DNA of 64,000 bases from Patescibacteria group bacterium (GTDB taxonomy: Bacteria > Patescibacteriota > Minisyncoccia > Phycocordibacterales > Phycocordibacteraceae), in contig JAZKIU010000001.1 of the NCBI GenBank assembly GCA_040384705.1, positions 25,907 to 89,906 on the forward strand, in the 5' to 3' direction. Made by a program: the position numbers and the translations under genes. Below the pieces are notes generated by a model. It was not told the DNA's origin, made no database searches, and worked only from the letters and a program-made list of their open reading frames with translations. Below are positions 20,248-62,078 of the stretch, one piece after another. Position 1 is the stretch's first letter, and each line of letters starts with the position of its first letter.

Positions 20248-20283
20248 CTCCGAAAATTATACCGCACGCACTCGCACGCGCGC

Positions 20284-20622
20284 TTAGTGAGTACCTGTTC
20301 CAGGCGGAACCTGCCGGTCAGGCACCATGAATGCGAAGGTCTCGCCTTCCCCTGCGGCGAAGAGCATACCGTTGCTCTCAAGCCCTTTGATGGTACGGGG
20401 CTCGAGGTTCGTCACGAAGGAAAGCTGGCGACCGATGAGCGTCTCGGGCTCGGGAACATACGCATTGATGCCCGACACTATCTGGCGCGGCGCTTCTTCC
20501 CCGAATTCCACCATGAGGCGCAGCAGCTTATCGGTCTCGGGAACGCGCTCTGCCGATATGACGGTGCCGACCTTCACTTCTATCTTCGAGAAGTCATCTA
20601 TGGAAATGCGTGGCTTATCCAT
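20284..20622 (-). CDS. tRNA-binding protein (CsaA/Trbp111-like, MetRS C-terminal-domain fold)
   Basis: N-terminal IDDFSKIEVKVGTVISAE motif typical of the tRNA-binding OB domain. Confidence 0.75.
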   Translation of the reverse strand: MDKPRISIDDFSKIEVKVGTVISAERVPETDKLLRLMVEFGEEAPRQIVSGINAYVPEPETLIGRQLSFVTNLEPRTIKGLESNGMLFAAGEGETFAFMVPDRQVPPGTGTH

Positions 20623-30195: not shown

Positions 30196-30942
30196 CTATC
30201 GGCTCGCGCCCGCAAGAGCGGTGAGCACGCCGGCGGTGATGGCGAGGCTCTTCACGTGCTCGGAACCTTTGACCACGTAGCCGCCGTATTGAACGGTCAG
30301 CATGCGTTCGCAGTGCCACTTGTAGCCGCGGGGCGCTTGGGTGTTGGGCGGCGCCGGCGGGCACTGGTTGCCGTACTCCTTGTAGGGAAAGGGCCACACG
30401 ATGCCGCCGTAGAACCGCGATCCAGAGCTGCCGTACCGGCCGTAGCCGTAGTCGCGTTGGCCGCTGTAGCCGTAGTCGCGACCATCGGGCGTCTGGCACA
30501 TGTTCGACCGCAGATCGAATCCGCAGCCAATATTGCTGGCGTTGCTGCCGTACCCTCCGCGGTTGTAGCCGCGATAGTCGTTCGCGACGCGCACAGGCTC
30601 GGGATACGCCTGCGAAGGCGGTTCCCGATAGCTCGGTGCGTAGCTCGTGGGCGTCGTAGAGGATTCGGAAATCCGGTACTCCTCGAGCGGAGTGATGCCG
30701 CTCGAACGCATCGTGGCTGCCGGAGCAGGCGACGCGTGCTCGATCGGGCTTTCCGTGAACGCGAGCTGGCGCGGGTGCGCGGCGTAGGCGGTAGGCGCGG
30801 CCGGAGCCGCAATCGATTTCGAGCAGTCTTTCGACATGTTGCCCGAGAAGGATTTGAAGCATTTCGCCGACGCGGTGCCGCCGAACGCGATGGTGGCGAT
30901 TATGGCGATGGAAGGAACGCCAAGAAGAGCGCGAAGGCGCAT
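30196..30942 (-). CDS. Secreted low-complexity Gly/Tyr/Arg-rich protein
   Basis: Signal peptide MRLRALLGVPSIAIIATIAFGGTASA, then Pro/Ala/Ser-rich and YG/GYG repeat regions (DYGYSGQRDYGYGRYGSSG). Confidence 0.5.
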   Translation of the reverse strand: MRLRALLGVPSIAIIATIAFGGTASAKCFKSFSGNMSKDCSKSIAAPAAPTAYAAHPRQLAFTESPIEHASPAPAATMRSSGITPLEEYRISESSTTPTSYAPSYREPPSQAYPEPVRVANDYRGYNRGGYGSNASNIGCGFDLRSNMCQTPDGRDYGYSGQRDYGYGRYGSSGSRFYGGIVWPFPYKEYGNQCPPAPPNTQAPRGYKWHCERMLTVQYGGYVVKGSEHVKSLAITAGVLTALAGASR

Positions 30943-31036
30943 GATGAGTCTCCTGATTGCTTGGTTACTGAGGTATAGTATAGCAAAATACACGGTAAAT
31001 GTCAATAGCCTGGCCCTTTCCGCAGGGTGCTACTAT

Positions 31037-32719
31037 ATGGCCTATATGCCGGCTCATTTCGATACCGATGCGGAGGACGCGAAGCTAGCGTCCGTCCGCG
31101 AGAAAGAGGAGGAGGACCTCGCCCAGATACTCTCCGAGAAGCACGGACTTCCCTACACCGACCTCTCGGTCGTGCCCGTGAACATGGACGCGCTCCGCAT
31201 CATCCCGGAGACACAAGCAAAGGAAGCGGAAGTGGTCGCGTTCGATAAGAATGGTAAGCACGTCTCGCTCGCAATTCAGAACCCCGAGAATATCGCGCTC
31301 GCGAAGGTGGTGAGCGACCTCGAAGCCCAGGGCCTCATCATCGCGAAGTTCCTCGCCTCGAGAAAGAGCCTCGAGAAAGCGCTTTCCCGCTACGCCGACC
31401 TTTCCTATGCCCACGAGGATAGGGCGGGCATGTTCGACATCAAGAGCGAGGAGATCCATGAACTCACTAATAAGCTGACTGATATCGCAGCGCTCCGCGA
31501 CGACCTCACCAAGAGCATGGAGGTGGGCCACCGCGCGCAGACCTCGAGGATATTGGAGCAGATGCTCGCGGCAGCGCTCTCTATGCGCGCTTCCGATATC
31601 CACATAGAACCTGAGGAGGCCGGAATACGCCTTCGCCTTCGCATCGACGGTCTGCTGACCGATGTGTTCATGTTCGATTCTCACGGGTACGAACTCCTCG
31701 CGTCCCGCATCAAGCTCCTTTCGGGACTCAAGCTCAATATCAAGGACCGGGCGCAGGACGGACGCTTCTCCATTGTCGTGAACAATGAGATAGAGGTTCG
31801 TACCTCCGTTATCCCAGGCGCATATGGCGAATCGATTGTCATGCGTATCCTCAATCCCAATACCCTTTCCATATCCTTCGAGGGCCTCGGCATCCACGAG
31901 AAGATTCTCGCGAAGCTCGCCGTCGAGCTCAAGCGCCCTAACGGGATGCTCCTTACGACCGGCCCCACGGGCTCGGGTAAGACGACGACGCTGTATGCGT
32001 TCCTTAAGTATCTCCATACGCCTGACATAAAGATAATCACTATCGAGGACCCGGTGGAATACCATATCCCCGGCATCGTGCAGACGCAGGTGAACCATAA
32101 GGACTACACCTTCGCTGCGGGACTCCGCTCCATTCTGCGCCAGGACCCGGACGTCATCATGGTGGGCGAGATACGCGATGCAGAAGTGGCAGAGACCGCT
32201 ATTCAAGCAGCGCTCACCGGTCACTTCGTGTTCTCAACACTCCACACCAATAACGCAGCGGGTACCTTCCCCCGCCTGGTCGATCTTGGTATCGATTCCA
32301 AAACATTCGCATCCGCCATTACCGTCGCGATGGCGCAGCGTCTCGTGCGCACGCTCGACCATGATCGCCGCAAGCAGGTCCCGCTTACCGACGAGCAGAA
32401 GAGGACAGTCGAAAAGATATTCTCGACCGTCGAGGATAAGTCGCTCCTCCCTGCTTCATACGACATGACGTGGGTACCAGATGCCGCAGAGGGAGACGAG
32501 ACGTCGGGATACAAAGGCCGCATGGGCCTCTACGAAGCGATATTCATGGACGATGAGCTGGGTGAGTTCTTGCGCGATAACCCGAGCGAGCATGACATCG
32601 CGAAGCATGTACGCCGCCAGGGCGCGCTCACCATGGCGCAGCAGGGCGTCATCGACGCACTTAATGGACTGACCTCGCTCGATGAGGTGTTCCGCATCGT
32701 CGATATCCCCCGCGATTAG
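31037..32719 (+). CDS. pilB: Type II/IV secretion ATPase (PilB/GspE family)
   Basis: T2SSE N-terminal domain, Walker A GPTGSGKTTT, Asp box, Walker B and the tetracysteine-free His box. An alternative start at the ATG at about 31046 fits a leaderless transcript. Confidence 0.9.
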   Translation: MAYMPAHFDTDAEDAKLASVREKEEEDLAQILSEKHGLPYTDLSVVPVNMDALRIIPETQAKEAEVVAFDKNGKHVSLAIQNPENIALAKVVSDLEAQGLIIAKFLASRKSLEKALSRYADLSYAHEDRAGMFDIKSEEIHELTNKLTDIAALRDDLTKSMEVGHRAQTSRILEQMLAAALSMRASDIHIEPEEAGIRLRLRIDGLLTDVFMFDSHGYELLASRIKLLSGLKLNIKDRAQDGRFSIVVNNEIEVRTSVIPGAYGESIVMRILNPNTLSISFEGLGIHEKILAKLAVELKRPNGMLLTTGPTGSGKTTTLYAFLKYLHTPDIKIITIEDPVEYHIPGIVQTQVNHKDYTFAAGLRSILRQDPDVIMVGEIRDAEVAETAIQAALTGHFVFSTLHTNNAAGTFPRLVDLGIDSKTFASAITVAMAQRLVRTLDHDRRKQVPLTDEQKRTVEKIFSTVEDKSLLPASYDMTWVPDAAEGDETSGYKGRMGLYEAIFMDDELGEFLRDNPSEHDIAKHVRRQGALTMAQQGVIDALNGLTSLDEVFRIVDIPRD

Positions 32720-42336: not shown

Positions 42337-43575
42337 CTACAGGTCGTAGGACCACAAGGATCCATCGACCTTATTCATGAAAACGAGCACGTCTTCGCCC
42401 GCATCGATCGAGAGCGATTGAGCATCTATCTGCACGTCCGCGAGCTGGCGCGGATCGAACGTAAGGGTTGCGACGCGCGTAGCTAAATCAATACGCCATA
42501 CACGGTCCGAGAAGGAGCGGGCACCCTGGTACCAATCATCGGGCAGTATGCCTGAGAGCGAGGTAGGGACGCCGCAATAGAGGGCATCGCTGCCTGGTGT
42601 CCACACGCATTTCTCCGGCAGGGTCGAGAGCGGCAGAGGAACGGCAGTGCGGGTGGCGGTGTCGAAGACCTGCGTATATATCTTTCCGCGGTCAGCGTAG
42701 CTATAGAGGATCTTCGTGCCGGACGGTGATGGGAGAGTCGAAAGCCCGCGGAGCGGCCCGAGGACGCGCGTGAACGTTCCTGCCTTGTCGACGAGGAACG
42801 CATATCCGTCGAGATGTGCGGAGGCTTTGGTCTGCGCTACATACCCGCTTCCTGCGAAGGCGACGCGCAGCGATGACATCACTGAGGAGAAGATGGTCGT
42901 GGCGCCGCTGCCGTCGGTGTTCATTATGGTCGCGACCGATCCGCTGCCGCTTGAGAGGAGCGTAAGGACGCTCGAGCTCGCCGCCGTTATCTGCGCGAGG
43001 CCTTGCGTAAGGAAATAGCCCCCTTCCCCGCTCACCGGCAGTAGGTACGTGCTTACGCGCTCTTCGGTACCGTCCTTCTCAAGGAACCGTACGAAGGCGC
43101 GCGAACCATCGCGCGTCCATGAAGCGTCCTCGATACCAGGCAGCGTCTTGTTCGAAAGCCTCGTCATCGTGCGCTCGTGGATTCGGAAGGAGTACACGTT
43201 ACCACTCTGCCGATCGATATAGCGGACTTCCACATCTTCTGGCACTGCGATAACCGTCGTCTGGGTCGTTGTCGCGGTCGAGGAAGCCGTTACCGGCGCG
43301 GAAAGTTGCGGTGGGAAGTATATAGATGCGGTGCCTTTGGCGACCGGTCCGTTCGTGAGCTTCATGAGGCGTGGAGGGAAGACGGTCCCGGCTCCAGGCG
43401 TAGGCACCCCCGTGTCCACGGGTGTCACTGCTCCCGGATCCCTGTCGTCCGCGGAACCGAATGGGTCAGGACCAACCGCAATACCAGAGCCTTTGGAGAA
43501 GAAAAGGAAGTATGCGCTAAGCCCCAACGCAATGAGGAGGACGAGCGTACCGACGATGATGAGGATGCGACGCAT
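42337..43575 (-). CDS. Secreted or membrane-anchored protein, possible beta-propeller, last gene of the T4SS-like operon
   Basis: Start at the internal ATG (MRRILIIVGTLVLLIAL); Trp/Asp-containing repeat-like segments; stop lies 2 nt from the upstream gene. Confidence 0.5.
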   Translation of the reverse strand: MRRILIIVGTLVLLIALGLSAYFLFFSKGSGIAVGPDPFGSADDRDPGAVTPVDTGVPTPGAGTVFPPRLMKLTNGPVAKGTASIYFPPQLSAPVTASSTATTTQTTVIAVPEDVEVRYIDRQSGNVYSFRIHERTMTRLSNKTLPGIEDASWTRDGSRAFVRFLEKDGTEERVSTYLLPVSGEGGYFLTQGLAQITAASSSVLTLLSSGSGSVATIMNTDGSGATTIFSSVMSSLRVAFAGSGYVAQTKASAHLDGYAFLVDKAGTFTRVLGPLRGLSTLPSPSGTKILYSYADRGKIYTQVFDTATRTAVPLPLSTLPEKCVWTPGSDALYCGVPTSLSGILPDDWYQGARSFSDRVWRIDLATRVATLTFDPRQLADVQIDAQSLSIDAGEDVLVFMNKVDGSLWSYDL

Positions 43576-43577
43576 AA

Positions 43578-44540
43578 TTATTTCTTGTCGTACGAACAGG
43601 AGCAGTACTGCTTCTGCCCGTTCGCCGTCTTCGCGGTGCTGCACGAGACCCCATCCCCTTTCTGGTAATTGCAGCACTGGATAGCGGTATTATCGGTCCA
43701 CGCTATCTCCGTGCCGTGCGGGATGGATTTGCATGCGGTATTCGGCTCGCCAGTCGCCGGTATCTTGGACTGAGGCGGGTTCTGCGGGGAAACAGGCGCA
43801 GTCTTCAGTCCGCAGCAGATGCCGCCGTTCAGGTTCGTCGCGCAGCAGCTATCGGTGATCCGCAGTTCCCCCTTCCCTCCGTCGCACGCATTACCTTGCG
43901 GCTTCACCACAGTCTTGTCCTTATATTCTTCGCAGCTCGCGGCCGGAGTAGTGCCCTCTCTCTTCATGCAAATTGTTACGACCGTCCCGGTGCACGTTCC
44001 GCCGTCGGGTATTGGAGCTATGGCGCCACCATCGGCGGGTTTGCAGTTGGCTATAGGCAGGCCGCCCTGCTGCAAGCACTGCGTGCTGGCCGTACCGTAC
44101 GACGAAGTGTCGTTCGCCCATAGGATATCTTCCGCGATACTATCACCGGCCGATAGATCGGAAAGTCCTCGTATCTCGAGCTTCAGTATGTCCGGATTGA
44201 TTATGGAGAAGACGATGGTGGGCGCGAGGACGAGCAGTAGGCCGATGATAGTATCGCGGATGAGATTCTTCGCGTCCCCTATCTTCTCGTGGCTACCGGC
44301 CGCCGTCATCCAGGTCACGCCTGCCCGCATTATCTGCAGGACGCCAATGGCGGCTGCGAGCCCGATACATATCATGTATACGCTGTTGAGGAAGTTCGGG
44401 AGGTCGGCCGCGTTGCCTGCGAACGTTACGTTCTGTATGTTCGTGAGCGGCACAAAGCCCACTTCCGTATCCTGCGCAAAGGCAAGAACAGGAGCCAAGA
44501 CAATCATGGATATTACGAATGTAAGGAAAGTCTTTTTCAT
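43578..44540 (-). CDS. VirB2/TrbC-like pilin module fused to a roughly 200-aa Cys-rich extracellular domain
   Basis: Signal peptide MKKTFLTFVISMIVLAPVLAFA, then two hydrophobic helices separated by a short charged loop (…MICIGLAAAIGVLQIMRAG…AGSHEKIGDAKN…IIGLLLVLAPTIVFSII), then about 22 cysteines (CC, CxC patterns). Confidence 0.5.
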   Translation of the reverse strand: MKKTFLTFVISMIVLAPVLAFAQDTEVGFVPLTNIQNVTFAGNAADLPNFLNSVYMICIGLAAAIGVLQIMRAGVTWMTAAGSHEKIGDAKNLIRDTIIGLLLVLAPTIVFSIINPDILKLEIRGLSDLSAGDSIAEDILWANDTSSYGTASTQCLQQGGLPIANCKPADGGAIAPIPDGGTCTGTVVTICMKREGTTPAASCEEYKDKTVVKPQGNACDGGKGELRITDSCCATNLNGGICCGLKTAPVSPQNPPQSKIPATGEPNTACKSIPHGTEIAWTDNTAIQCCNYQKGDGVSCSTAKTANGQKQYCSCSYDKK

Positions 44541-45514
44541 AGTCCGAATATACCAAGCCCACGCTCCTCCCCGAACTTAACTTGGAGGCGTTGTTCAGCG
44601 GTTGCGAAAGTCGCCGCCTGCTTAACACGGGCGATGAGGTTCGCGACCCCTCCCCCGCTCCCCGTCGCTCGGAGCGTAACGTCCTTATCGCTTCCACTCT
44701 CGGCATTGTTCACGAGCCAGGTGAGCGCGGATCCATTTGGGAAATAGTACGGAACGGCGCGGAATGTCTGCTCATCCCCGCCCATGGTGATGGCTCCTGA
44801 AAGCGCGGTATCGAAAAGGGGTCCGAGGAGCGGATCATTACGATATATACGGACGAGTGGATCTATCGGGGACACTACCGCACTGGTCTGCGCTACGATC
44901 GCGCTATCCGCGCTCGTTACGGTGAGTGTCACGCGGGTATCACGGAAGCGCACAGGCGCTGTTGCTGAAAGGTAGGACTTGCCGATACCGGACTCCGCTT
45001 GGAGCACGCGGTCCCCCAGGCGCCACGTATAGACGAGCGAGCTCGCGGGAAGGCGGGTGCCTGCCGAGGAGCGCAAATCAGGGAGTGCGATGATGCGTAG
45101 GAGTCCCTCCGAAGCGACACCCGCACCGCCCTGGTAGAACGGATGGGTGGTAGTGACCGGCTCTATAACGAGCGACACATCAGCAGGACGGACCGAAAGG
45201 GTCTTGTTGTAGGTGCGTCCTTCGGCGGTCACCGAGACGGTGATGGTGGTGACGCTTCCAGGCCCGCCAACAGTCACGTTCGTGGGTGCGGTGCCGCTCC
45301 CACGCGAGACGACGGTGCCGTTCGCTGAGACGGTGACCGCGCTTGAGGAAAGGTCGACGAGCGTGCTGCTTGGGGTCACCACAATCGTCTGGTATGGCTT
45401 CGGATACTCGGGGGAGATTGTTACGGTAAGCGGCTCGACCCCGCCGAATTGCGCATGGAGCGCACTCGGTACGAGAAGCGCGATGAGCGCGAGCGGGAAA
45501 AACAACCTCGACAT
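44537..45514 (-). CDS. Secreted protein with Ig-like beta-rich repeats
   Basis: Signal peptide MSRLFFPLALIALLVPSALHA; Thr/Val/Ser-rich beta segments. Confidence 0.45.
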   Translation of the reverse strand: MSRLFFPLALIALLVPSALHAQFGGVEPLTVTISPEYPKPYQTIVVTPSSTLVDLSSSAVTVSANGTVVSRGSGTAPTNVTVGGPGSVTTITVSVTAEGRTYNKTLSVRPADVSLVIEPVTTTHPFYQGGAGVASEGLLRIIALPDLRSSAGTRLPASSLVYTWRLGDRVLQAESGIGKSYLSATAPVRFRDTRVTLTVTSADSAIVAQTSAVVSPIDPLVRIYRNDPLLGPLFDTALSGAITMGGDEQTFRAVPYYFPNGSALTWLVNNAESGSDKDVTLRATGSGGGVANLIARVKQAATFATAEQRLQVKFGEERGLGIFGL

Positions 45515-45564: not shown

Positions 45565-46002
45565 TTATGCAGCTTCACGATGTTCGCCCGCAGCTGGTGC
45601 ATTATCATTCGCCGGCGTACCTCTTCTCATTCTTCGCTTCCCTACCTGCTGCGTAAGGAATGGCGCATTCTTCTTCTCTTTCTCCCCCACCTCCTTATTG
45701 TGCTGATAGATGAGCATCGCTACCCCAGTGGTAGTAGCAGGAAGCGCATTAATGAACGGAACGAGCTCGACGACGATAGCTGAGAGCGAGGTGAAGAGCT
45801 TCCCACCACCCTTGTTCGTGATGTATTGGACGCCGAGTAGCTGGAACCAGATGAAGAACACTATCCACACGAGCGGCGTAAGGAACCACGAGAAAACGGC
45901 ACCGAGCACCGTAAGCGTCAGGAGGAATTGGATAAGGTCTACGAGTATCGCTACAGCGAGAAGCGAGAAGATAGCGACCGGGCCTATCTTCTCCTGCTTC
46001 AT
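45565..46002 (-). CDS. Small polytopic membrane protein (three TM helices)
   Basis: Hydrophobic, with a Trp/Phe-rich middle; directly downstream of the VirB4 ATPase ORF with a 4-nt overlap. Confidence 0.45.
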   Translation of the reverse strand: MKQEKIGPVAIFSLLAVAILVDLIQFLLTLTVLGAVFSWFLTPLVWIVFFIWFQLLGVQYITNKGGGKLFTSLSAIVVELVPFINALPATTTGVAMLIYQHNKEVGEKEKKNAPFLTQQVGKRRMRRGTPANDNAPAAGEHREAA

Positions 46003-47834
46003 ACGCGCAAGGGCGGAGCCCCTCCCTCTGCCCCTTGCCGTTCCTTCTCACGCTTTATCGCAAGAAGCTGCGAAGGGTCCGATGTGATTATCTGGTCCTC
46101 GGTGTATGACGCAACAACCTTGATGGCGACGTGCTTGAGGCCCGCAAAGAAGAGGCCCTCCCCAACCCCGCTCTCAAGAAGAAGGTACTTCTCCTCATCG
46201 GTGAGGTTGAACGTCTCCTGGAGCACGTCTATCGTCGTTGGTGACTGCTTAAGGAGGAGTTGGAGGGATGAGTTCGTGAGAATAGGGCGGCCATACGGCG
46301 AGCGGAGGAAGTCCTCCACATCCTGGGTGATGGTAGCGAGCCCGAGATAGTACTTGCGTCCGCGCTTGGCGAGGCTGTAGAGGAAGGAGGCGGTGTCCTC
46401 CGACTTCATCATCCACCACGCTTCATCGATGACGAGTAGGCGCTTCTTGAGCTCGTGACGCACCGCGTTCCAGATGAAGTGCGTGATGATGTACATCGCG
46501 ACCGGCTTGAGCTCGTCCTCCATGTCCCGAACCGAGAAGACGATGAACTGCTTATTGATATCGACGTTCGTCGGTCGGTTTATGAATCCGGCCCAGGTGC
46601 CGTGCGTGTATTTGGAAAGCCGGGTAACGAGCGACTCGGATCCCTCCATGCCGGAAAGCACGTTCTCGAAGTCGGAAAGGAGCGGCGGCTCCTGGCCCGT
46701 GAAGTCGTTATCGCCCGTGATGTCCTTCAGCGCGTATGTCTCCGTGATGGCTCGATCGATGATAGCGTCCTCTTCCGGGGTAAGGCCGCCCAGCATGATG
46801 CGGAACAGGCCGACGAGATTGATGATGTTGGACCGGAGGATATCGGAAGGCTCCTCGTCCTCTTTGACCGGCGGCAGGTCGAACGGGTTGATGTGATGCT
46901 CGGAGGAGAGCGAGATGTTGAAGGTACGTCCGCCGGTCGCTTCCGCAAGGTATTCGTACTCGCGTTCCGGGTCAATGACAATGACTTCCGTCTCGAACAT
47001 GAGGGAGCGGAGTATCTCAAGCTTCACCGCGTACGACTTGCCCGAACCTGACTTCGCGAACACGACGGAGTTGTAGTTCTCGAGCGAGAAGCGATCGAAG
47101 AGTATCAAGGATGCATTGTGGCGGTTGATGCCGTACAGGATGCCGCGATCGCTCGTGAGGTCGAAGGAAACGAATGGGAATATCGAGGAAAGCGGCGAAG
47201 AATTGAGCTTGCTGTTCACCTGGAGCTCGTCGAGCGCGAGCGGAAGCGTCGAGCGGTATCCCTGCTCCTGCTGAAAGAGAGCGGGCTTCGTGTATACGAG
47301 CTTGGAGTCGAGGATGCCGCGCACCTCCCCTTCTATCTTGTCGAGCTCCTCCTTGCTGTCGCCGTAGAGCGTGAGATACAGGCCGACATCGAAGAGGCGC
47401 TCCTGCGCCTGCTGCAGCTGGTCGCGCAGGTTCTCGAGGTCCTGGTACGCCGTGTCGAGCATCGGGTCACGCACGAGCCCCTTCGATTCCCTCTCGTTTA
47501 TCTGGCTCTCCACTTCAGCGACCTTCCTCTGGAAGCCACGAAGAGCACCTGCGGTCTCGAGCGGGTGTATGAATATGGCAGCATCGAGCACACGGTCGAG
47601 GTTCACGATTGGCATGAACCAGCCGTCCGAGAGGAAGCGGGGGTATGAAATGGTGTAGAACGAGCGCGAGAACTTCTCCCCGAGTTCGATTTCCCGTGCG
47701 CTCACCTTGAGTGCAGCTGGGGCGATAGCATCAGCAAGATCGAGCTTACCTTCCCGATAGATATCGGCAGGAAGAACGGGCGTCACGCTAGGCGTTTCTT
47801 CTTTCTTGCGGTTGAGGAAATCGAGTAGCGCCAT
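45999..47834 (-). CDS. virB4: VirB4/TrbE/ConE-family type IV secretion ATPase (central and ATPase domains)
   Basis: Walker A FAKSGSGKS, Walker B LLVIDEAWW, and the YPRFLSDGW central-domain motif. Confidence 0.85.
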   Translation of the reverse strand: MALLDFLNRKKEETPSVTPVLPADIYREGKLDLADAIAPAALKVSAREIELGEKFSRSFYTISYPRFLSDGWFMPIVNLDRVLDAAIFIHPLETAGALRGFQRKVAEVESQINERESKGLVRDPMLDTAYQDLENLRDQLQQAQERLFDVGLYLTLYGDSKEELDKIEGEVRGILDSKLVYTKPALFQQEQGYRSTLPLALDELQVNSKLNSSPLSSIFPFVSFDLTSDRGILYGINRHNASLILFDRFSLENYNSVVFAKSGSGKSYAVKLEILRSLMFETEVIVIDPEREYEYLAEATGGRTFNISLSSEHHINPFDLPPVKEDEEPSDILRSNIINLVGLFRIMLGGLTPEEDAIIDRAITETYALKDITGDNDFTGQEPPLLSDFENVLSGMEGSESLVTRLSKYTHGTWAGFINRPTNVDINKQFIVFSVRDMEDELKPVAMYIITHFIWNAVRHELKKRLLVIDEAWWMMKSEDTASFLYSLAKRGRKYYLGLATITQDVEDFLRSPYGRPILTNSSLQLLLKQSPTTIDVLQETFNLTDEEKYLLLESGVGEGLFFAGLKHVAIKVVASYTEDQIITSDPSQLLAIKREKERQGAEGGAPPLRV

Positions 47835-47836
47835 GA

Positions 47837-48469
47837 TTATTGTTCTAGTCGGATAGGGTTCTCCGTGACGCCAGGATTGAACGAGCGGTACAGGAGTTCG
47901 ATGAGCTCCTCGGTACCGAGCGGTACCGCGCGTATGCCGGCGTTCTGGAGGCCGGACGCGACGAGTCCCATCCGCTGCTCGAGCTGGACGCGGTGCTCAT
48001 CGAAATTATTCGGGCCCGCCTGCTCGGTCGGAGCTGTCGGCTTCTTAAGGAACGGAATGCTGCTCGTTACGGCGCTCGCGATTGCGGGGGTGTATGGCAC
48101 GACGACATAGAAGAGCTTCGTCATGATGTCGCTCGAATCCATGAAGTTCCGTATGAACGCGAGATACTCGCGGAGCTGCAGGCGCATCAGCTCGCTCGTC
48201 TGCGTATCCATCTTGCTCTCGAGCAATGCGAGGTAGGGTCGGATATCCATCTTGCGGGAATGCACGAGTATCTCGACCGAGAAATCGAGCGTGTTCAGGA
48301 AGTTCTGGAACCCTCCGATTATGCCGCGCTGCTCGTCCTCGGATTTGAGGAAGAAGTTCATGGAGGAGCACATGAGGACGCCTCGGTACCCGTCCTCCTT
48401 GAGGATGATGATGCCGTTGCGTACTTCTTCGACCGGCACGAAGGATTGGGTTGCTTTTGGTGTCGCCAT
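47837..48469 (-). CDS. VirB4 N-terminal domain encoded as a separate ORF (split VirB4)
   Basis: VPVEEVRNGIIILKEDGYRGVLMCSSMNFFLKSEDEQRGII matches the N-terminal region of Gram-positive VirB4 homologues. TAA stop lies 2 nt before the ATG of the ATPase ORF, in a different frame. Confidence 0.6.
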   Translation of the reverse strand: MATPKATQSFVPVEEVRNGIIILKEDGYRGVLMCSSMNFFLKSEDEQRGIIGGFQNFLNTLDFSVEILVHSRKMDIRPYLALLESKMDTQTSELMRLQLREYLAFIRNFMDSSDIMTKLFYVVVPYTPAIASAVTSSIPFLKKPTAPTEQAGPNNFDEHRVQLEQRMGLVASGLQNAGIRAVPLGTEELIELLYRSFNPGVTENPIRLEQ

Positions 48470-48471
48470 GA

Positions 48472-48885
48472 TTAGGGGTTCGTGGGCGGCTGATTGTCCT
48501 TGATATCCAGCGACCAGGCGAGTTCCTGGAGCCGTCCGCGCGAAAGGCCGAGCTTCTGGGGAGCCTGCACCTCGACCGGGGCGACGTATGCCGAGCTGGA
48601 AGTTTTCGCCTCCTTCTTCCAGAGGTAGAGGCGCCCGCCTACGTAGTACTTGAAGCCGGCCTCGAGCATCTCCACGAAGGTCTTGTTGTTCACTTTGTAG
48701 AACGCGAGCGCAGCTGCGAGCGCGACGACGGGTATGGAGAGGATGATACCGAACAGGAGCGGTAGATACAGGAGGAATATTGCGGCAAGTCCCCCGCCGC
48801 CGGCGAGATAGATGAATTGCTTCAGCGTCAGCGGGCCGATTATCTTGTCCTCTACTTCGATGAACTGCGGCACTTGGTATTCCAT
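48472..48885 (-). CDS. PrgI-family / VirB3-like small membrane protein
   Basis: MEYQVPQFIEVEDKIIGPLTLKQFIYL followed by two TM helices, positioned immediately upstream of VirB4. Confidence 0.55.
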   Translation of the reverse strand: MEYQVPQFIEVEDKIIGPLTLKQFIYLAGGGGLAAIFLLYLPLLFGIILSIPVVALAAALAFYKVNNKTFVEMLEAGFKYYVGGRLYLWKKEAKTSSSAYVAPVEVQAPQKLGLSRGRLQELAWSLDIKDNQPPTNP

Positions 48886-48946: not shown

Positions 48947-49861
48947 TTACTGCATCGGCTCGCGATATGGGTCTACGCCGTACTGCTTCAGATGGGTGCG
49001 CATAGCAGCTTCAGGGCTTTCGCGCTCAGGAGCTGGTTGGGTAGTTGGAGGAACGGATGCAGCGACTTGCGGGCGCGGTGCTTCGGCTGCTACCCATGCG
49101 GGAGGTGCGGGATGCGCAACGCGTATAGGATCGACACCGTCCTTGAGTGCTTTCATATCGCGCGCCATTGTGTGGATGACCCGGGCATTCGTGTCGAGCG
49201 GCTGGGCTTCTGGCATGGGAATCGAGACAGCAGGAGTTGGCGCCGGGTTTGGAGGAGGAGGAACGGGACGCTCGGGCATCTGGCCCGGCAATATCTGCGG
49301 AGGTGGGACTTGCTTGGGTGCCACTGGTTTCTCTATCGCTTTCTCGATGTACGAAGGCGGAGCGGAGACCGCAGGCAATGGGCTATATACAGGAATCATA
49401 GGAGAAGGGTGGGGTGCGGCAGGTGCAGGTGCCACATATATAGGTATCTCTTTAGCAACCGGAGCAGCAATAGTCGCAGGCACCAGGTCTTTAGATCCGG
49501 TGTCGCTTCCCCGCCGCTCTTCTTCGCGTAAACGCATGAAAACATCCTTATTCACATCTTCCACGAGCCCATTCACTTTCTCGGGAGAGATGCCTGCTTC
49601 ACGCAGCGAAACCACAAATTCCGGTGGCGAAGAAATACCTAGAAGCATGAATATAAATGCCCGCTCAAATTCCCCCGCTTGATCGGCATGAAGACCATAC
49701 TTCTTTGATAGTTCCAACACGACGCGAGCGCGCTCGCTACCAGTTATGAATTCTTGCACAGGCTTAGGTAGCTCGGCCACCAGTGTGGCAATAGCGTCTT
49801 CGACGGACATTTTCTCGGAATTAGGCGTTACGTTGGTCGGTTCCATATCTGAAATCATCAA
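48947..49861 (-). CDS. Proline-rich protein of the T4SS-like operon
   Basis: An alpha-helical N-terminal domain, then about 150 aa that are Pro/Ala/Val-rich (PPPNPAPTPAVSIPMP...). Confidence 0.45.
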   Translation of the reverse strand: MMISDMEPTNVTPNSEKMSVEDAIATLVAELPKPVQEFITGSERARVVLELSKKYGLHADQAGEFERAFIFMLLGISSPPEFVVSLREAGISPEKVNGLVEDVNKDVFMRLREEERRGSDTGSKDLVPATIAAPVAKEIPIYVAPAPAAPHPSPMIPVYSPLPAVSAPPSYIEKAIEKPVAPKQVPPPQILPGQMPERPVPPPPNPAPTPAVSIPMPEAQPLDTNARVIHTMARDMKALKDGVDPIRVAHPAPPAWVAAEAPRPQVAASVPPTTQPAPERESPEAAMRTHLKQYGVDPYREPMQ

Positions 49862-52149
49862 TGCGCTCCACCTCCACCTCCACCTCCACCTCCACTAGCC
49901 GGTGCCCCACCCCCACCTATTTTGCTGCCGAGTCCGGCTATAGCATCTATCACCCTCTGATTTTCTGATTTATCAATACTCTTCAGTATCTCTGCAGCAG
50001 CCTCATGGTTTGCGTGGGCGTCGGCCGTCGGCCAAGGCAGGCCTCTATGCTCGATATTCTTAGCAAACTCGCGCTTCGGCACATTTGAATCCACGTCTTT
50101 CATCGCTCGATCGATATCTTCGATTTCACGATCGATTCGGCGCGCAGTTGCCTTCTGGTCCTTCTCAAACAACGCCTTACGAGCCTTCAAGCTCTTTGCC
50201 AACGCTTCATTTGTGGGCCCACCAGCACTTTCAGCTGCTGCAATTTCAACCTGGAGCGTGTCAGTTTGTTCCTCCGTCTGGCGCTGCAGGATTTTCTTCT
50301 CGGCTTCCTTGCTGTTCTTCTGATTCTTCAGCTTATTCTCTGCGGATTTTTCCTCATCTGTTTGCTTAAGCTTGCCGGCATAGTCAGTGCGCTCCTTTTT
50401 CGCTTTCTCCTCTATCCCATGCCAGCCATGAGATGCGTCTTTACCAACCTTCCCAAAATCAAGATGTGCACCCTTCCCAGCAGCGGTAGCAACGCCTCGC
50501 ATGCTGTAGCTCGCTGCCGCACCTTTGCTAAAGGTGTTGTAGACGCCTCGTCCAAATTGACTGTTCCTCGCCCACTTGGTCTTTCCGATACGCTCAGCAA
50601 CTACGCCCGACGCCGCACCAACCGTGCGTCGTCCCAGGAAGCCATACGTCCCAAGCACCGCTCCGCCCGCCTTCTGCGTCGCGAAGTCAGCGCCCACTGC
50701 TCCCATACGCTTGGCGACCACTAGTGAGGCAACCATGAACGCGATGACTATCGCGAACATGACGAAGACCTGGGGAGCATTCATTCCGCCATTGATGAGC
50801 GCGAGCGCGAACGAATCCCCGTTATCTGTACCGACGAGCCCCTCGACTATCTTCAGGCTGATGAGGACGAGAAGGAGGTAGACGGGAGCGAAGAACGCAT
50901 TCGATAGAAGCTGCTTCCACCAGCTGCGTGCGAATTCTTGAAGCGGCGGGATGGCCATTCCCGCGAATCCAATAGGCGAAAGGACCATGAGAAGGCAGAG
51001 CATCACCGCACGCATGATGAGCATTATCGCTGCGGCAAGCAGGACGACGGCAGTGATGGTGACGAAGATCGTGAGACCTACGTATACCGGAGCGTGCTTC
51101 TCCGGACGATTGCTGAAGTCCCCGATACCCTGCGGGCTCCATATGCTGGATATGCCGGCCATATGGATGACTTGCCCCGCGATGCCGTTATTCGCGCACG
51201 CCTCTTTTCCTTGCTCGTCATTGCCCGAGCAGCCGGAGAGGCCAGCCTGTGTCGTGAACACGGAAGCGAAACTGTTGGATACGTCGATGATGATCTGCGT
51301 GGCGAAGAGGCTGAAGTTGAGAAGCACTGCGAAGATAATGAGTCGTGCGATGGTCTTACCCCCTGCGAATTCATTATGGCTATCGATTATCTTCATCAGC
51401 CCCATGAATATGAATCCGAAGAGCAGAAGAATGTTCGCAATATCACGGAGTATTCCCCAGGCGATGAGCATCCCCGGAGAGGTTCCAAAGTAACTACCGA
51501 ACTCGAAGACTGTCTTTATCACTACCCAATTAAAGAGACCGCCCACCACCCAGAGCATGAAGCTGGCGATGATGAGGAGCACACTCGCGATGGAGCCGAT
51601 AATCGTTCCCATAAGGCCCGCGAGGCCCTCTGCGACGCATGAGCCGATATCCCCAAAACTTTTGAGGCTACAATTGCTTGTGGAATCAGGGTTCGCGTCC
51701 ACATTCGCGTTATTTTGCTCCCCAGTCTGCTTAGCATCGACCGCACTTGCATCTCTAGAGTCATCGGTCCCAATGAGCTTCCCATCCGCGTCGTAGTTCT
51801 TCACTTCCTGCCCCGCCAGTGCTCCGGGGGTTATCGTCGTGTACGAGCCGTCCTTAAACGTAACCTTGCACGTGCCAGCTGAGCCAAGCGCCCCCCCACA
51901 AGCTGTGGTGCTTCCGTCAGCATTCGCACGCGTGCAGCCGGTATTCCCCGTGGTGGCGCCGCACGGGCTTTCATCAACCGATGCGTGGCTAATGGATGTA
52001 ACGGATGTCTGAGCGAGAGCTGCTGCTGGAATAAAAAGACACGCTGAAGCTGCCGCCAGAAGCGCTCCACAAATGATTAGGGCCTTAAGATGGTCAGTTC
52101 GTGCACCTTGATCCTTCGGAAGTGTGCGCATGATTAGTTCGACGGACAA
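49858..52149 (-). CDS. VirB6/TrbL-like polytopic membrane protein with a long coiled-coil, Gly-rich C-terminus
   Basis: Signal peptide, a Cys-containing roughly 150-aa ectodomain, at least 6 TM helices, a KEAEKK coiled coil, and a terminal GGGGAPASGGGGGGGGGAH tail. Confidence 0.65.
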   Translation of the reverse strand: MSVELIMRTLPKDQGARTDHLKALIICGALLAAASACLFIPAAALAQTSVTSISHASVDESPCGATTGNTGCTRANADGSTTACGGALGSAGTCKVTFKDGSYTTITPGALAGQEVKNYDADGKLIGTDDSRDASAVDAKQTGEQNNANVDANPDSTSNCSLKSFGDIGSCVAEGLAGLMGTIIGSIASVLLIIASFMLWVVGGLFNWVVIKTVFEFGSYFGTSPGMLIAWGILRDIANILLLFGFIFMGLMKIIDSHNEFAGGKTIARLIIFAVLLNFSLFATQIIIDVSNSFASVFTTQAGLSGCSGNDEQGKEACANNGIAGQVIHMAGISSIWSPQGIGDFSNRPEKHAPVYVGLTIFVTITAVVLLAAAIMLIMRAVMLCLLMVLSPIGFAGMAIPPLQEFARSWWKQLLSNAFFAPVYLLLVLISLKIVEGLVGTDNGDSFALALINGGMNAPQVFVMFAIVIAFMVASLVVAKRMGAVGADFATQKAGGAVLGTYGFLGRRTVGAASGVVAERIGKTKWARNSQFGRGVYNTFSKGAAASYSMRGVATAAGKGAHLDFGKVGKDASHGWHGIEEKAKKERTDYAGKLKQTDEEKSAENKLKNQKNSKEAEKKILQRQTEEQTDTLQVEIAAAESAGGPTNEALAKSLKARKALFEKDQKATARRIDREIEDIDRAMKDVDSNVPKREFAKNIEHRGLPWPTADAHANHEAAAEILKSIDKSENQRVIDAIAGLGSKIGGGGAPASGGGGGGGGGAH

Positions 52150-53474
52150 GCGCGTGCTTGGCGTATCTGTACGAGCTGACTATAGAGTGAGCCAGATACA
52201 GTGCTTGCGGCCGCTTGCGCAGCTGCTGTTTCCGTGGCTGTAGGGACAACACTCGCTATCACGTCGGTGGTGACGCCTGGCTGACGTAGTACTGACGTGG
52301 CGGTGCTTACGCGTGACTGCGCGATCACTGAATCCTGAACGGCCTTAAGGGCGACGCTTGACTCGGGACATTTCTGGACAGCTGCCTGTGCCGCTGTACC
52401 AATCGTTTGCCAGCTCGTCTCATACGTCGCGAGGCGTGACTGCGCTGCAGCGTCTACCGTACCTCCCGTTTGTTGATTGGGAGCGGTCGCTTGATTCAGG
52501 ATAGAACTACCACCACCGCTCGATGGTGCGGAAACGCCGAGGAGTCCCGTCTTCCCGATGACCTGCGTCACCAGCTGCTGCATGAGCGCGCCGATTATCT
52601 CATCTATCTCGTCGGCGGCGACGAGCCCTTCCATACTCTTCGGAAGTGCTGCATTGAGCTGCGACGATATAACGCTTCCCGGGGTCTTTATCTCCCGATA
52701 CAGACAGTTATCGACTTCCGCGAGCGATGTCGCGCTCCCACCCTCGGCAAGATCGGTCGCGTCTACCCCATCAGCCTTTTGGGCCGCGGTCAGGCTATCG
52801 GAATCGATGAGGCAATCCCCGCGGTACGACATGAACCCATCACCCCAATCAAGTTCGGTTATCCGTTCTCCCTGGGCGCTCGAGAGCCGTCGGTCGAGTT
52901 CGCCGAGCGCGAGCTGGTACGCGCCATACGGATTGTTCTGCTGGTTCATCGTGGTCGAGAACCATGCGGAGAGCCCGCCCTGCGAGAAGTCGCCACGAAG
53001 GAATGCGTCCGGATCCGAGCTGTACTGGTCGAGGGTGAACGGATTCCGGACGTAGAAGGAGCCTCCAGTAGAAAGGTAGTAGCCGGTGCGGACCGCTGTC
53101 ACTATCTCGTCCTGATAGGGCGAATCCACTATCCCGTCCGCGAGCTCGTCGAAAAACCTCCCCGCGACCGCGTCACCTACCCGCAGCAGGTTCTGCCGTA
53201 GATTAGTCGCGAATGCCGGAGAGCCCTGGAAGCCGGAATTTATCCACGTTACCAGGCTTCTCGTCATGGCGGATACCGCAGACTTCGCTATCATCCAGGC
53301 GATACCATCTGCGATAGTGTCCTTTCCGAAATGGGCCGCCTGGAAGGCAGTATTCAAAACATCGCCGACTGGGAGGAAGGCGTGCGCCGGGCGCGGTGCG
53401 ACCGCGACCCCCATCGGCAGGACGATACTGAAAGCTACGAGTAGCGAAATGAGGGTGCGGGTGAATCGTGCCAT
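52134..53474 (-). CDS. Secreted hypothetical protein of the T4SS-like operon
   Basis: Signal peptide MARFTRTLISLLVAFSIVLPMGVAVA and a 420-aa Gln/Ser/Ala-rich domain. Confidence 0.45.
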   Translation of the reverse strand: MARFTRTLISLLVAFSIVLPMGVAVAPRPAHAFLPVGDVLNTAFQAAHFGKDTIADGIAWMIAKSAVSAMTRSLVTWINSGFQGSPAFATNLRQNLLRVGDAVAGRFFDELADGIVDSPYQDEIVTAVRTGYYLSTGGSFYVRNPFTLDQYSSDPDAFLRGDFSQGGLSAWFSTTMNQQNNPYGAYQLALGELDRRLSSAQGERITELDWGDGFMSYRGDCLIDSDSLTAAQKADGVDATDLAEGGSATSLAEVDNCLYREIKTPGSVISSQLNAALPKSMEGLVAADEIDEIIGALMQQLVTQVIGKTGLLGVSAPSSGGGSSILNQATAPNQQTGGTVDAAAQSRLATYETSWQTIGTAAQAAVQKCPESSVALKAVQDSVIAQSRVSTATSVLRQPGVTTDVIASVVPTATETAAAQAAASTVSGSLYSQLVQIRQARACPSN

Positions 53475-53480
53475 ATACGT

Positions 53481-54467
53481 TTACGGTTGTTGGGAAGCGC
53501 GGAGCGCGGTCGCGTCAGCTGCACCTTTCACGTACTCCTCCCCTGCTGCGCCGGGTGTGAGCGAGAGGCCAGCTGCTCGGAACACTGCATCCTGCGCAGA
53601 TAGTGCGTCAACGAGTGCGTTCGAATAGGTCCGGTGCACGCCGAAGCCGAGCAGCGCGAGTATCGGATCGGTGCTTATCGTAGAGAGGTCTTCGGTAGCG
53701 CGACCCAGTCCCATGAATGCATTCGCAAGCGCGAGATGAGACTGGGCGGCTTCGGCAGGCACGCTTATCTGGATAAGCGCCTCCCCTATCGCTGCATACC
53801 CGACGGCTATTTCCTTCATGCGACGCGGGGCGGCCGCATCGTTGTCTTCTATATAGCGCTCAACATGGTCGAGCTCTGACGCGCCTGTGTTCGCTGCATT
53901 CTGCTCAATCGCATTCTCGACAGCGGCGACGTAAGTCGCGAGGCTGGTCCCGGCCACTATTTTGATATCTTTGGTATCAAAAGCGTTCTTCGCCGTCGCT
54001 TCCGCGGTCAATTCTTTTATCGCGCTCTCGACGAACGCAAGCATCTCTTCCTCCCTAGGAGGGGTCGCTCCACGCGTCGAGAGATACTGCGCGAGGAATT
54101 TCTGCGCGAATCGCTCGGTGAGCGATGAGGGTGCAGCCGAGGTGCCCGGGAATTCCCCGTCATCCTTGGGCGCTTCAAGGGATTTCGGTGTCAGGAGACC
54201 TTGATTGACTGCTTCACCGTCCTGAATGTCAGCTCTGAAGGAAGTCGGATTCAACGGATCGGTGCCGTAGAGGGACTCCTGCCAATCCTGTAGCCCGTCA
54301 GCGTCCGTATCCTTCGCCGCATACGCACGAAGCAATTCCTCGCTCGATTCAGCCGTCACGGTGTTGATGAACGGGATAGGGCCCGAGAGTACGTACGCAC
54401 CAGCCATCAGCGTTACCGCTATGACCGAAGCGATGATGATTGGGACGGTACGGGTAGAATGAGCCAC
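53481..54467 (-). CDS. Membrane-anchored protein, first gene of the T4SS-like operon (GTG start)
   Basis: N-terminal TM helix and a roughly 290-aa extracytoplasmic domain (its size suggests a VirB8-like role, though no motif was identified). Extended -10 TGATAGTAT lies 13 nt upstream. Confidence 0.45.
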   Translation of the reverse strand: MAHSTRTVPIIIASVIAVTLMAGAYVLSGPIPFINTVTAESSEELLRAYAAKDTDADGLQDWQESLYGTDPLNPTSFRADIQDGEAVNQGLLTPKSLEAPKDDGEFPGTSAAPSSLTERFAQKFLAQYLSTRGATPPREEEMLAFVESAIKELTAEATAKNAFDTKDIKIVAGTSLATYVAAVENAIEQNAANTGASELDHVERYIEDNDAAAPRRMKEIAVGYAAIGEALIQISVPAEAAQSHLALANAFMGLGRATEDLSTISTDPILALLGFGVHRTYSNALVDALSAQDAVFRAAGLSLTPGAAGEEYVKGAADATALRASQQP

Positions 54468-61975: not shown

Positions 61976-62078
61976 TAGCCCTACCTTACCACATCTTGAT
62001 TAAAAGCGCAAGTGTTGTGGGGTGCGGACAGCCTCCCCTGCCAATATTTTACGACGTCCCGGGTGCTACACTTTCTAT

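What the first reader, a model, noticed from the sequence alone, without database searches (positions are those of the whole stretch)
43578..44540. VirB2/TrbC-like pilin module fused to a large Cys-rich extracellular domain
After a cleavable signal peptide there are two hydrophobic helices separated by a short charged loop, the hallmark of T4SS pilins. These are followed by about 200 residues with roughly 22 cysteines (CC, CxC, CxxC patterns) and Gly/Thr-rich linkers. A pilin subunit carrying a disulfide-rich adhesin-like domain is unusual and could be the host- or DNA-contact tip of this system.
Basis: partly seen in the sequence, partly recalled or inferred. Interest (0 to 1): 0.7.

Follow-up and report, generated by a model that had tools for sequence, protein, structure and literature searches.

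The report
Secretion-system pilin with cysteine-rich outer tail
[quoted passage not shown] Unlike ordinary pilins of this kind, it carries a 180-residue tail of three small, probably disulfide-bonded modules that should sit on the cell or pilus surface and probably contact the host.

Summary
The ORF (43578-44540, minus strand, 320 aa) is real and under strong purifying selection. It has a signal peptide, a two-helix hydrophobic hairpin and a Cys-rich tail. The tail holds 16 Cys, not about 22, and has no CxxC. The hairpin belongs to the Patescibacteria T4SS pilin family PF18895. The query itself scores below threshold, but 64 of 71 relatives match PF18895 and 43 of 71 match TrbC/VirB2. The gene lies in a conserved virB6-prgI-virB4 operon beside yidC-dnaA. 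In related genomes the same slot holds pilins of only 158-174 aa, so this is the operon's only pilin, not a dedicated tip protein. The tail consists of three modules (A, B, C) that occur in many combinations among relatives. Its Cys count is even in 69 of 70 relatives. AlphaFold2 models it confidently (pLDDT 87.5). It has no Pfam or PDB relative and is found only fused to this pilin. The pilin and the system are known (Quinonero-Coronel 2025; Wang 2023). The large modular tail is, as far as I could find, undescribed. Verdict: a new variant of a known kind, of moderate interest. Pilus formation and adhesion are inferred, not shown.

The parts
43578..44540 (-). Whole gene: pre-pilin of 320 aa, including the stop codon
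   Evidence: ORF list. The exact protein is also called on a Logan contig. Purifying selection against L004 and L007.
44475..44540 (-). Signal peptide, residues 1-22, with predicted cleavage AFA|QD
   Evidence: Sequence features. P17, A22 and Q23 are conserved in the family. The cleavage site is inferred; no predictor was available.
44406..44474 (-). Extracellular N-terminal segment, residues 23-45, with the conserved GFVPLTNI motif
   Evidence: F, L and T of the motif are invariant in A1 and A2. pLDDT is low. In 12 of 70 relatives this is the site of Cys-rich inserts carrying 4 or 8 Cys.
44304..44405 (-). Pilin helix 1, residues 46-79 (LPNFLNSVYMICIGLAAAIGVLQIMRAGVTWMT)
   Evidence: Hydropathy. 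AF2 helix 48-78. PF18895 match 49-110. Aligns to the equivalent part of A. tumefaciens VirB2 8cue at a non-significant E of 1.4.
44253..44303 (-). Charged loop, residues 80-96 (AAGSHEKIGDAKNLIRD). Predicted to be cytoplasmic in the membrane form and to face the lumen in a pilus.
   Evidence: E85 and K86 are nearly invariant. Positive-inside count read from the sequence. The lumen orientation is by analogy with F- and T-pili (PMC7555446, PMC9905601).
44166..44252 (-). Pilin helix 2 plus the conserved exit motif, residues 97-125 (TIIGLLLVLAPTIVFSIINPDILKLEIR)
   Evidence: Hydropathy 2.26. AF2 helix 83-113. G100, L103, L105, P107, F111, I114, N115, I118, L119 and L121 are invariant in 71 sequences. 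Residues 46-125 are 80/80 identical to L004 at dS 0.58.
44130..44165 (-). Flexible linker, residues 126-137
   Evidence: pLDDT below 50 for residues 117-135. Variable in the alignment.
43956..44129 (-). Cys module A, residues 138-195 (C155, C166, C183, C191), a small alpha/beta mini-domain
   Evidence: pLDDT 86-95 in the tail-only model. The module HMM finds it in PIL-A, PIL-A-B, PIL-A-C and A-PIL-C architectures.
43803..43943 (-). Cys module B, residues 200-246 (C203, C219, CC232/233, CC242/243)
   Evidence: C219 and C243 are nearly invariant across 71 sequences. The module occurs alone after the pilin in 11 relatives. pLDDT 74-84.
43581..43787 (-). Pro-rich linker plus Cys module C, residues 252-320 (C270, CC289/290, C300, C313, C315)
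   Evidence: All six Cys are invariant in A2. pLDDT 94-97. The module occurs alone after the pilin in 13 relatives.
44537..45514 (-). Upstream conserved secreted protein of 325 aa. Its stop overlaps the pilin start (ATGA).
   Evidence: Called as 325-348 aa in L001, L003, L004, L006, L010 and L011. No Pfam hit. Junction sequence.
42337..43575 (-). Downstream conserved membrane-anchored protein of 412 aa. It starts 2 nt after the pilin stop.
   Evidence: Called as 405-425 aa in all related loci. The mechanical ORF list extends it to a GTG at 43677.
45565..46002 (-). Conserved small membrane protein of 145 aa
   Evidence: Weak hit to a pLS20_p028 conjugation membrane protein.
45999..48469 (-). 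VirB4 ATPase encoded as two genes: a TraC-like N-terminal piece (47837-48469) and the ATPase (45999-47834)
   Evidence: NF045971 CD1110-family VirB4 at 377 bits; PF19044. The same split is present in all related loci.
48472..48885 (-). PrgI/VirB3-like protein of 137 aa
   Evidence: ORF. Its orthologues carry PF12666 PrgI.
49858..52149 (-). Extended VirB6/TrbL-like protein of 763 aa
   Evidence: PF04610 TrbL at 27 bits. The orthologue carries PF19590 TrbL_3.

Best explanation
The gene encodes the only VirB2-like pilin (Pfam PF18895 family) of a chromosomal, conjugation-derived type IV secretion system in a Paceibacteria (Patescibacteria/CPR) bacterium.

Shown:
- Family membership at the level of the homologue set.
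- Operon position.
- Hairpin architecture.
- Extreme conservation of the hairpin.
- The tail is a constrained, confidently modelled three-module domain with an even number of Cys, found only on this pilin clade.

Inferred mechanism:
- The pre-protein enters the membrane by the Sec/YidC route and the signal peptide is cut after Ala22.
- The hairpin sits with both ends outside and the loop R72-D96 inside.
- The 16 tail Cys form 8 disulfides outside the cell.
- The VirB4 ATPase and the VirB3/VirB6 platform extract the pilin from the membrane and stack the hairpins into a VirB2-type tube.
- In known VirB2/TraA pili the loop lines the lumen and the chain ends lie on the outer surface. Every subunit would therefore display its A-B-C tail on the outside of the filament, much as flagellin displays its outer domains.
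- The tails act as the host-contact surface. Swapping modules between lineages changes what is bound.
For: Pilin identity:
- PF18895 matches residues 49-110.
- 64 of 71 relatives match PF18895 and 43 of 71 match PF04956.
- A relative is named 'pilin' by NCBI.
- The model hairpin overlaps T-pilus VirB2 (8cue, 8exh) and archaeal CedA1 (8dfu) at TM 0.55-0.60.

Context:
- The gene order TSP3 / 446 aa / VirB6 / 304 aa / PrgI / split VirB4 / 145 aa / 325 aa / pilin / 412 aa / yidC / dnaA is kept in L001-L006, L010 and L011.
- This matches the published description of the Patescibacteria T4SS (PMC12102498).

Sole pilin:
- There is one pilin module per locus.
- Short pilins occupy the same slot in related operons.

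Tail outside and oxidised:
- The topology puts the tail outside.
- The Cys count in the tail is even in 69 of 70 relatives.
- Cys-rich modules are also found on the N-terminal side of the hairpin, including a module-A match in P0018. Under a hairpin topology that is the same side of the membrane.

Tail is a functional folded domain:
- pLDDT 87.5 and dN/dS 0.04-0.07.

Filament-like evolutionary pattern:
- The core is invariant (dN = 0 at dS 0.58-0.74), while the outer part is modular.

Expression:
- T4SS pilins are among the most highly expressed genes of unknown function in cultured Paceibacteria (PMC10936435).

Essentiality:
- The T4SS and its pilins are essential for epibiotic growth in a Saccharibacterium (PMC10633639).
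Against: - No pilus made of a PF18895 pilin has been seen in any organism. The reviews speak only of a 'potential to elaborate conjugative pili' (PMC12857230).
- The query itself scores below the Pfam gathering threshold (21.3 against 26.6 bits).
- The structural match to VirB2 is not significant (E about 1), and any helical hairpin scores similarly.
- No VirB2-family pilin with a globular domain is known. Whether about 180 extra residues per subunit can pack around an 8-nm tube is untested.
- No disulfide-forming enzyme turned up among about 50 window proteins scanned. The rest of the genome was not available.
- The tail shows no similarity to any known adhesin.
Confidence: 0.55

Rival explanations
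1. Membrane-anchored surface protein with no pilus. The hairpin stays in the cytoplasmic membrane, perhaps as a ring or stalk within the T4SS channel. The tail reaches through the thin wall and S-layer as a fixed adhesin or cap. This would replace the PrgB-type adhesins that monoderm conjugation systems use and that Patescibacteria lack.
For: The system descends from monoderm MPF-FATA machines, which make no pilus, and no PrgB-like adhesin was found in Patescibacteria (PMC12102498). No PF18895 filament has been observed. The topology and the extracellular Cys-rich tail fit this reading equally well.
Against: The hairpin is far more conserved than a simple membrane anchor needs to be: dN = 0, with 13 columns invariant over 71 sequences. 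43 of 71 relatives match the TrbC/VirB2 profile, whose members polymerise. The reported high expression suits a structural polymer.
Confidence: 0.25
2. Pro-protein. The flexible linker (residues 117-137) is cut after export. That would leave an ordinary short pilin and release a soluble, disulfide-knotted 20-kDa protein, or separate mini-domains, acting on the host as a toxin or effector.
Confidence: 0.1
3. Minor or tip pilin. A few copies would cap a filament built from another, short pilin encoded elsewhere in the genome.
For: Large domains are typical of minor or tip pilins in other pilus systems, for example CofB (a weak chance-level hit). Only 64 kb of the genome could be examined.
Against: It is the only pilin module in the window and in all 11 related loci. 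It occupies the same operon slot as the short pilins of related genomes. Pilin arrays are reported to be especially abundant in other classes, Microgenomatia and Saccharimonadia.
Confidence: 0.08

Closest known systems
Patescibacteria T4SS VirB2-like pilins (Pfam PF18895 T4SS_pilin; Quinonero-Coronel et al. 2025, PMC12102498; Wang et al. 2023, PMC10633639)
   Same: Signal peptide plus two-helix hairpin with the same conserved motifs. The gene lies near virB4, prgI and virB6, next to dnaA. No relaxase or coupling protein was seen in the operon. The lineage is Paceibacteria.
   Different: Typical members are 100-177 aa with about 21 residues after the hairpin. This one has 195 residues after it, folded into three Cys modules. 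It is a single gene, not one of the 2-11-gene arrays described for Saccharimonadia and Microgenomatia.
TrbC/VirB2/TraA conjugative pilins of diderm bacteria (PF04956; T-pilus 8cue/8exh, F-pilus) and archaeal CedA1/TedC
   Same: Hairpin of two hydrophobic helices with a charged loop. Weak profile similarity in the family (43 of 71 relatives, best E 2.2e-5). Fold overlap at TM 0.55-0.60. Partnership with a VirB4 ATPase.
   Different: Those pilins are about 65-85 residues when mature, some are cyclised or acetylated, and none carries a globular domain. The query itself does not reach PF04956 at E of 0.01 or better. The host here is a monoderm-like ultra-small bacterium.
Filament subunits with a conserved core and variable outer domains (flagellin D2/D3; type IV pilins with large C-terminal domains)
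   Same: The evolutionary pattern is the same: an invariant polymerising core and a modular, lineage-specific surface part.
   Different: No homology. This is an analogy only, and polymerisation of this protein has not been shown.
Small disulfide-rich mini-domains (defensin-like CS-alpha/beta proteins, knottin-like toxins)
   Different: Scores are below significance. There is no sequence similarity and no Pfam family. The modules are never found free, only fused to the pilin.

Membership tests
PF18895 T4SS_pilin (Patescibacteria VirB2-like pilin) | Match to the family profile at or above the curated threshold | tested here: inconclusive
   The query scores 21.3 bits, E 2.8e-4, against a gathering score of 26.6. 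However, 64 of 71 homologues match at E of 0.01 or better (best 4.4e-11), and many carry a precomputed PF18895 hit.
PF18895 T4SS_pilin (Patescibacteria VirB2-like pilin) | Cleavable signal peptide followed by two hydrophobic helices joined by a short charged loop | tested here: met
   Hydropathy and sequence. AF2 helices 48-78 and 83-113.
PF18895 T4SS_pilin (Patescibacteria VirB2-like pilin) | Encoded in a T4SS cluster close to virB4 | tested here: met
   The gene starts 1.5 kb downstream of the end of virB4, in one operon with prgI and virB6. The synteny is kept in 8 related loci.
PF18895 T4SS_pilin (Patescibacteria VirB2-like pilin) | Small protein (about 100-180 aa) with little sequence after the hairpin | tested here: not met
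   320 aa, with 195 residues after the hairpin. The family median is 21. This departure is what makes it a variant.
TrbC/VirB2 superfamily (PF04956) | Profile match | tested here: inconclusive
   The query has no hit at E of 0.01 or better. 43 of 71 relatives hit, best E 2.2e-5. The module profile A5 finds VirB2 8cue only at E 1.4.
TrbC/VirB2 superfamily (PF04956) | Fold superposes on solved pilus subunits | tested here: inconclusive
   Foldseek gives 8cue/8exh TM 0.55-0.57 and 8dfu TM 0.60, with E of 1 or more. Unrelated helical hairpins score alike.
TrbC/VirB2 superfamily (PF04956) | Polymerises with lipid into a hollow pilus, driven by VirB4 | not testable with these tools
   Needs microscopy or biochemistry. 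No multimer prediction was available.
VirB5-type pilus-tip protein | Sequence or fold match to VirB5/TraC-type tip proteins | tested here: not met
   The protein has no Pfam or NCBIfam hit other than sub-threshold PF18895. No fold match.
Known cysteine-rich extracellular domain families (Pfam-A, PDB) | Any profile or fold match of the tail | tested here: not met

The most novel reading that the evidence does not exclude
This would be the first 'decorated' VirB2-type pilus. Every subunit of a conjugation-type filament would carry a 20-kDa, eight-disulfide, three-module ectodomain on the outside. Paceibacteria would change host range by shuffling these modules on an otherwise frozen pilin core. 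On this reading the T4SS pilus, and not only the type IV pilus, would be a host-recognition organelle of CPR epibionts.
Probability: 0.3. Interest if true: 0.7.

Novelty: new variant of a known kind. Interest (0 to 1): 0.45.

Why it matters
Patescibacteria make up a large share of bacterial diversity, and their T4SS is essential in the one case tested (PMC10633639). What it does and how it meets the host is unknown. VirB2-type pilins have been regarded as minimal 7-kDa hairpins.

A lineage in which the system's only pilin carries a large, constrained, modular, disulfide-rich ectodomain offers a concrete candidate for the host-contact surface. It also offers a natural experiment: short and long tails occur in the same operon slot, and modules occur in different combinations.

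That could be tested in three ways:
- Link tail types to hosts.
- Test whether a conjugation-type pilus can carry cargo domains on its surface.
- Find antigens or handles for enriching these uncultured cells.

If the protein never polymerises, the finding is still useful. It would then point to a new role for a VirB2 hairpin as a membrane anchor.

Tried and rejected
The tail was therefore compared only with solved structures.
- Profiles A1 and A5 against PDB sequences gave nothing significant.
- The tail against Pfam at E up to 10 gave nothing.
- The tail against PDB sequences gave only connexin-43 tail hits at E 0.014-0.065. I treat these as compositional chance.
- I looked for a pilin array or a second pilin and found none in the window or in 11 loci.
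- I tested whether the tail is hypervariable or under diversifying selection between close relatives. It is not (dN/dS 0.04-0.07). Variation arises through module gain and loss at greater distances.
- I considered the newly described CPR 'Pam' pili (bioRxiv 10.64898/2026.03.03.709456). These are Ig-fold, donor-strand-exchange filaments and are unrelated to this protein.
- I considered a metal-binding or redox role for the Cys. There is no CxxC or CxxCH motif, and the even Cys counts favour disulfides.
- I considered whether the plus-strand ORFs overlapping the gene (for example 43819-44580) are real. The substitution pattern fits the minus-strand frame.
- The scan of GTDB species genomes found only 3 loci. 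It depends on two exact peptide patterns, so this is a lower bound.

Full report
**Observation**

The window holds an ATG-initiated ORF on the minus strand at 43578-44540, 320 aa. Its start overlaps the stop of the upstream gene (ATGA). The next gene starts 2 nt after its stop. It is therefore one cistron of a tightly packed operon.

The N-terminus (MKKTFLTFVISMIVLAPVLAFA|QD) looks like a Sec signal peptide with an AxA cleavage site. Two hydrophobic stretches follow, at residues 51-74 and 96-119. AlphaFold2 models them as helices 48-78 and 83-113 joined by a four-residue turn. The segment before helix 1 has no Lys or Arg, while R72-D96 has four. With a cleaved signal peptide this gives an N-out, loop-in, C-out topology.

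The remaining 195 residues hold 16 Cys, at positions 155, 166, 183, 191, 203, 219, 232, 233, 242, 243, 270, 289, 290, 300, 313 and 315. One further Cys (C58) lies in helix 1. CC occurs three times and CxC once.

The enrichment is real. The tail is 8.7 % Cys, against 0.42 % in 32 other proteins of the window (binomial P about 2e-16).

The frame is real. Compared with two relatives (L004 and L007, dS 0.58-0.85 over these regions), the hairpin has no non-synonymous change at all and the tail has dN/dS 0.04-0.07.

**What the N-terminal module is**

- Pfam gives one hit: PF18895 T4SS_pilin at residues 49-110, 21.3 bits, below the gathering score of 26.6.
- A database search found 64 homologues. Several are labelled Candidatus Paceibacterota or Parcubacteria, one is named 'pilin' by NCBI, and many carry a precomputed PF18895 hit.
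- When the 71 family members were scanned individually, 64 matched PF18895 (best E 4.4e-11) and 43 matched PF04956 TrbC/VirB2 (best E 2.2e-5).
- The model hairpin overlaps T-pilus VirB2 (8cue, 8exh; TM 0.55-0.57) and the archaeal CedA1 pilin (8dfu; TM 0.60). The E-values are 1 or more, and unrelated hairpins score similarly.
- A profile of the module finds A. tumefaciens VirB2 in the PDB only at E 1.4, although it aligns at the equivalent helix.

Membership of the PF18895 clade is therefore well supported at family level. The link to VirB2 proper rests on weak profile similarity.

**Context**

The operon on the minus strand reads as follows:
- a TSP3-repeat protein (53481-54467);
- a 446-aa protein;
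- an extended VirB6/TrbL protein (49858-52149);
- a Pro-rich 304-aa protein;
- PrgI/VirB3 (48472-48885);
- VirB4 split into a TraC-like N-terminal piece (47837-48469) and the ATPase (45999-47834; NF045971, 377 bits);
- a 145-aa membrane protein;
- a 325-aa secreted protein;
- the pilin;
- a 412-aa membrane-anchored protein.

Beyond the operon come yidC, dnaA, dnaN and a class A PBP. The same order is found around homologues at 88 %, 55 % and 40 % identity (L004/L005, L001/L002, L003). It is also found on a contig carrying the identical protein (L006).

This is the Patescibacteria T4SS described by Quinonero-Coronel et al. 2025: related to the MPF-FATA class, with VirB2-like pilins near virB4, often next to dnaA, and usually without relaxase (PMC12102498). 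In a Saccharibacterium the system and its pilins are essential for epibiotic growth (PMC10633639). T4SS pilins are among the most highly expressed genes of unknown function in Paceibacteria that parasitise methanogens (PMC10936435).

**Major pilin or tip?**

An HMM of the pilin module finds one copy in the six-frame translation of the 64-kb window, and one copy in each of 11 related loci.

A profile search with the module alone retrieved 106 further PF18895 proteins of 69-177 aa. For the 92 with a complete module, the median length after the hairpin is 21 residues. Two of these short pilins (158 aa and 174 aa; 48-52 % identical in the module) lie in exactly the same slot of the same operon, next to yidC-rnpA-dnaA (L010, L011).

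The window gene is thus the positional orthologue of the operon's single pilin. The tail is an elaboration of that pilin, not the mark of a separate tip subunit.

**The tail**

Family alignments (A1, A2) and module HMMs divide it into three parts:
- A: residues 138-195, 4 Cys.
- B: residues 200-246, 6 Cys.
- C: residues 252-320, 6 Cys, preceded by a Pro-rich linker.

Among relatives the modules occur as A-B-C (10 proteins, including this one), A-B, A-C, B-C, A, B or C alone, and B-B. They also occur together with other, unassigned Cys-containing domains. In one protein, module A lies on the N-terminal side of the hairpin (P0018).

Twelve of 70 relatives have Cys-rich inserts (4 or 8 Cys) between the signal peptide and helix 1. 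Under a hairpin topology both ends lie on the same, outer side of the membrane, so this distribution supports that topology.

All 70 homologues of the first search have tails of 72-335 residues (median 181). The number of Cys in the tail is even in 69 of 70, which is what full disulfide pairing predicts.

A tail-only AlphaFold2 model has mean pLDDT 87.5, with 94-97 for module C.

The tail has no detectable relative:
- No Pfam hit, even at E up to 10, for the tail or for any single module.
- No Foldseek hit to the PDB at E of 0.001 or better.
- Only chance hits in PDB sequences.
- An exhaustive phmmer search of 1.84 billion representative proteins with the tail alone found 13 proteins. In all of them the match starts after residue 120, and all contain the pilin module.

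The modules therefore appear to exist only on this pilin clade. The scan of GTDB species genomes, limited by its two peptide patterns, found three loci.

**Evolutionary pattern**

Between the window and L004, DnaA is 100 % identical and VirB4 99.3 %. In the pilin the hairpin is 80/80 identical and the tail 169/180. The signal peptide and N-terminal segment are only 8/21 and 16/23 identical.

The core is frozen and the tail is conserved at short range but modular at long range. Filament subunits such as flagellin show the same pattern. This is an argument by analogy, not a demonstration.

**Mechanism (inferred)**

1. Export, cleavage after Ala22 and hairpin insertion with both ends outside.
2. 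Oxidation of the 16 tail Cys to 8 disulfides.
3. VirB4-driven extraction of the pilin and stacking on the VirB3/VirB6 platform.

In known VirB2/TraA pili the inter-helix loop lines the lumen (PMC7555446; PMC9905601). The chain ends are at the outer surface; this last point is from my recollection of the F-pilus structure and of C-terminal epitope display on F-pilin, and was not verified here. [quoted passage not shown]

**Rivals**

- The hairpin stays in the membrane as an anchor or channel part, and the tail is a fixed adhesin.
- The tail is cleaved off at the flexible linker and released.
- It is a minor tip pilin.

None of the three is excluded. The third is disfavoured by the synteny and single-copy results.

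**Comparison and novelty**

The pilin family, the operon and its position by dnaA are all published. I found no mention of long Cys-rich domains on these pilins in four full-text searches or in the key papers. That is absence within one library, not proof of novelty. No VirB2-family pilin with a globular domain is known to me.

I class the finding as a new variant of a known kind. The interest is moderate. The architecture is surprising for the VirB2 family and gives a testable handle on host recognition, but function and polymerisation remain inferred.

Noticed in passing
window 45999-48469 (-); L010 4475-8293: VirB4 is encoded as two adjacent genes: a 210-aa TraC-like N-terminal piece and a 611-aa ATPase. 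The split is kept in every related locus. In L010 the ATPase gene is 1272 aa and carries an intein (Intein_splicing plus LAGLIDADG).
   Followed up: partly
window 48947-54467 (-) compared with L004 96-5608: Divergence within one operon is mosaic. Against L004, DnaA is 100 % and VirB4 99.3 % identical. VirB6 is only 63 %, the 304-aa protein 59 %, the TSP3-repeat protein 52 % and the 446-aa protein 73 %. The pilin's signal peptide and N-terminal segment are also strongly diverged. This suggests recombination or fast evolution of the surface-exposed half of the machine.
   Followed up: partly
window 42337-43677 (-): The mechanical ORF list starts this gene at a GTG that overlaps the pilin by 100 nt. 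Gene calls in L004 and L006 (412 aa) put the start at the ATG at 43575, 2 nt after the pilin stop.
   Followed up: yes
window 18605-20381 (-) and 30836-32719 (+): Type IV pilus genes lie in the same window: PilM, a PilN-like protein and a PilB-type T2SSE ATPase. The organism therefore has both a type IV pilus and the T4SS.
   Followed up: no
window 57403-58551 (+): A LysM plus Peptidase_M23 protein lies 3 kb beyond the T4SS operon. The 2025 survey notes that VirB1-like wall hydrolases of Patescibacteria often carry these domains, so it may serve the T4SS.
   Followed up: no
whole window: The proteome is very poor in cysteine: 54 Cys in 12,834 residues of 32 proteins, with 15 proteins having none. 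Besides the pilin tail, the VirB6-like protein stands out with 11 Cys.
   Followed up: partly
window 62022-62984 (+): A tyrosine recombinase (Phage_integrase with SAM-like N-domain) sits next to an Exo_endo_phos nuclease. It was not determined whether this is XerC/D or the edge of a mobile element.
   Followed up: no
L007 (CAYSUL010000001.1) and L008: The two closest GTDB genomes carrying this pilin are titled 'uncultured Candidatus Saccharibacteria'. The named protein homologues are labelled Paceibacterota or Parcubacteria, so the record titles may be mislabelled.
   Followed up: no
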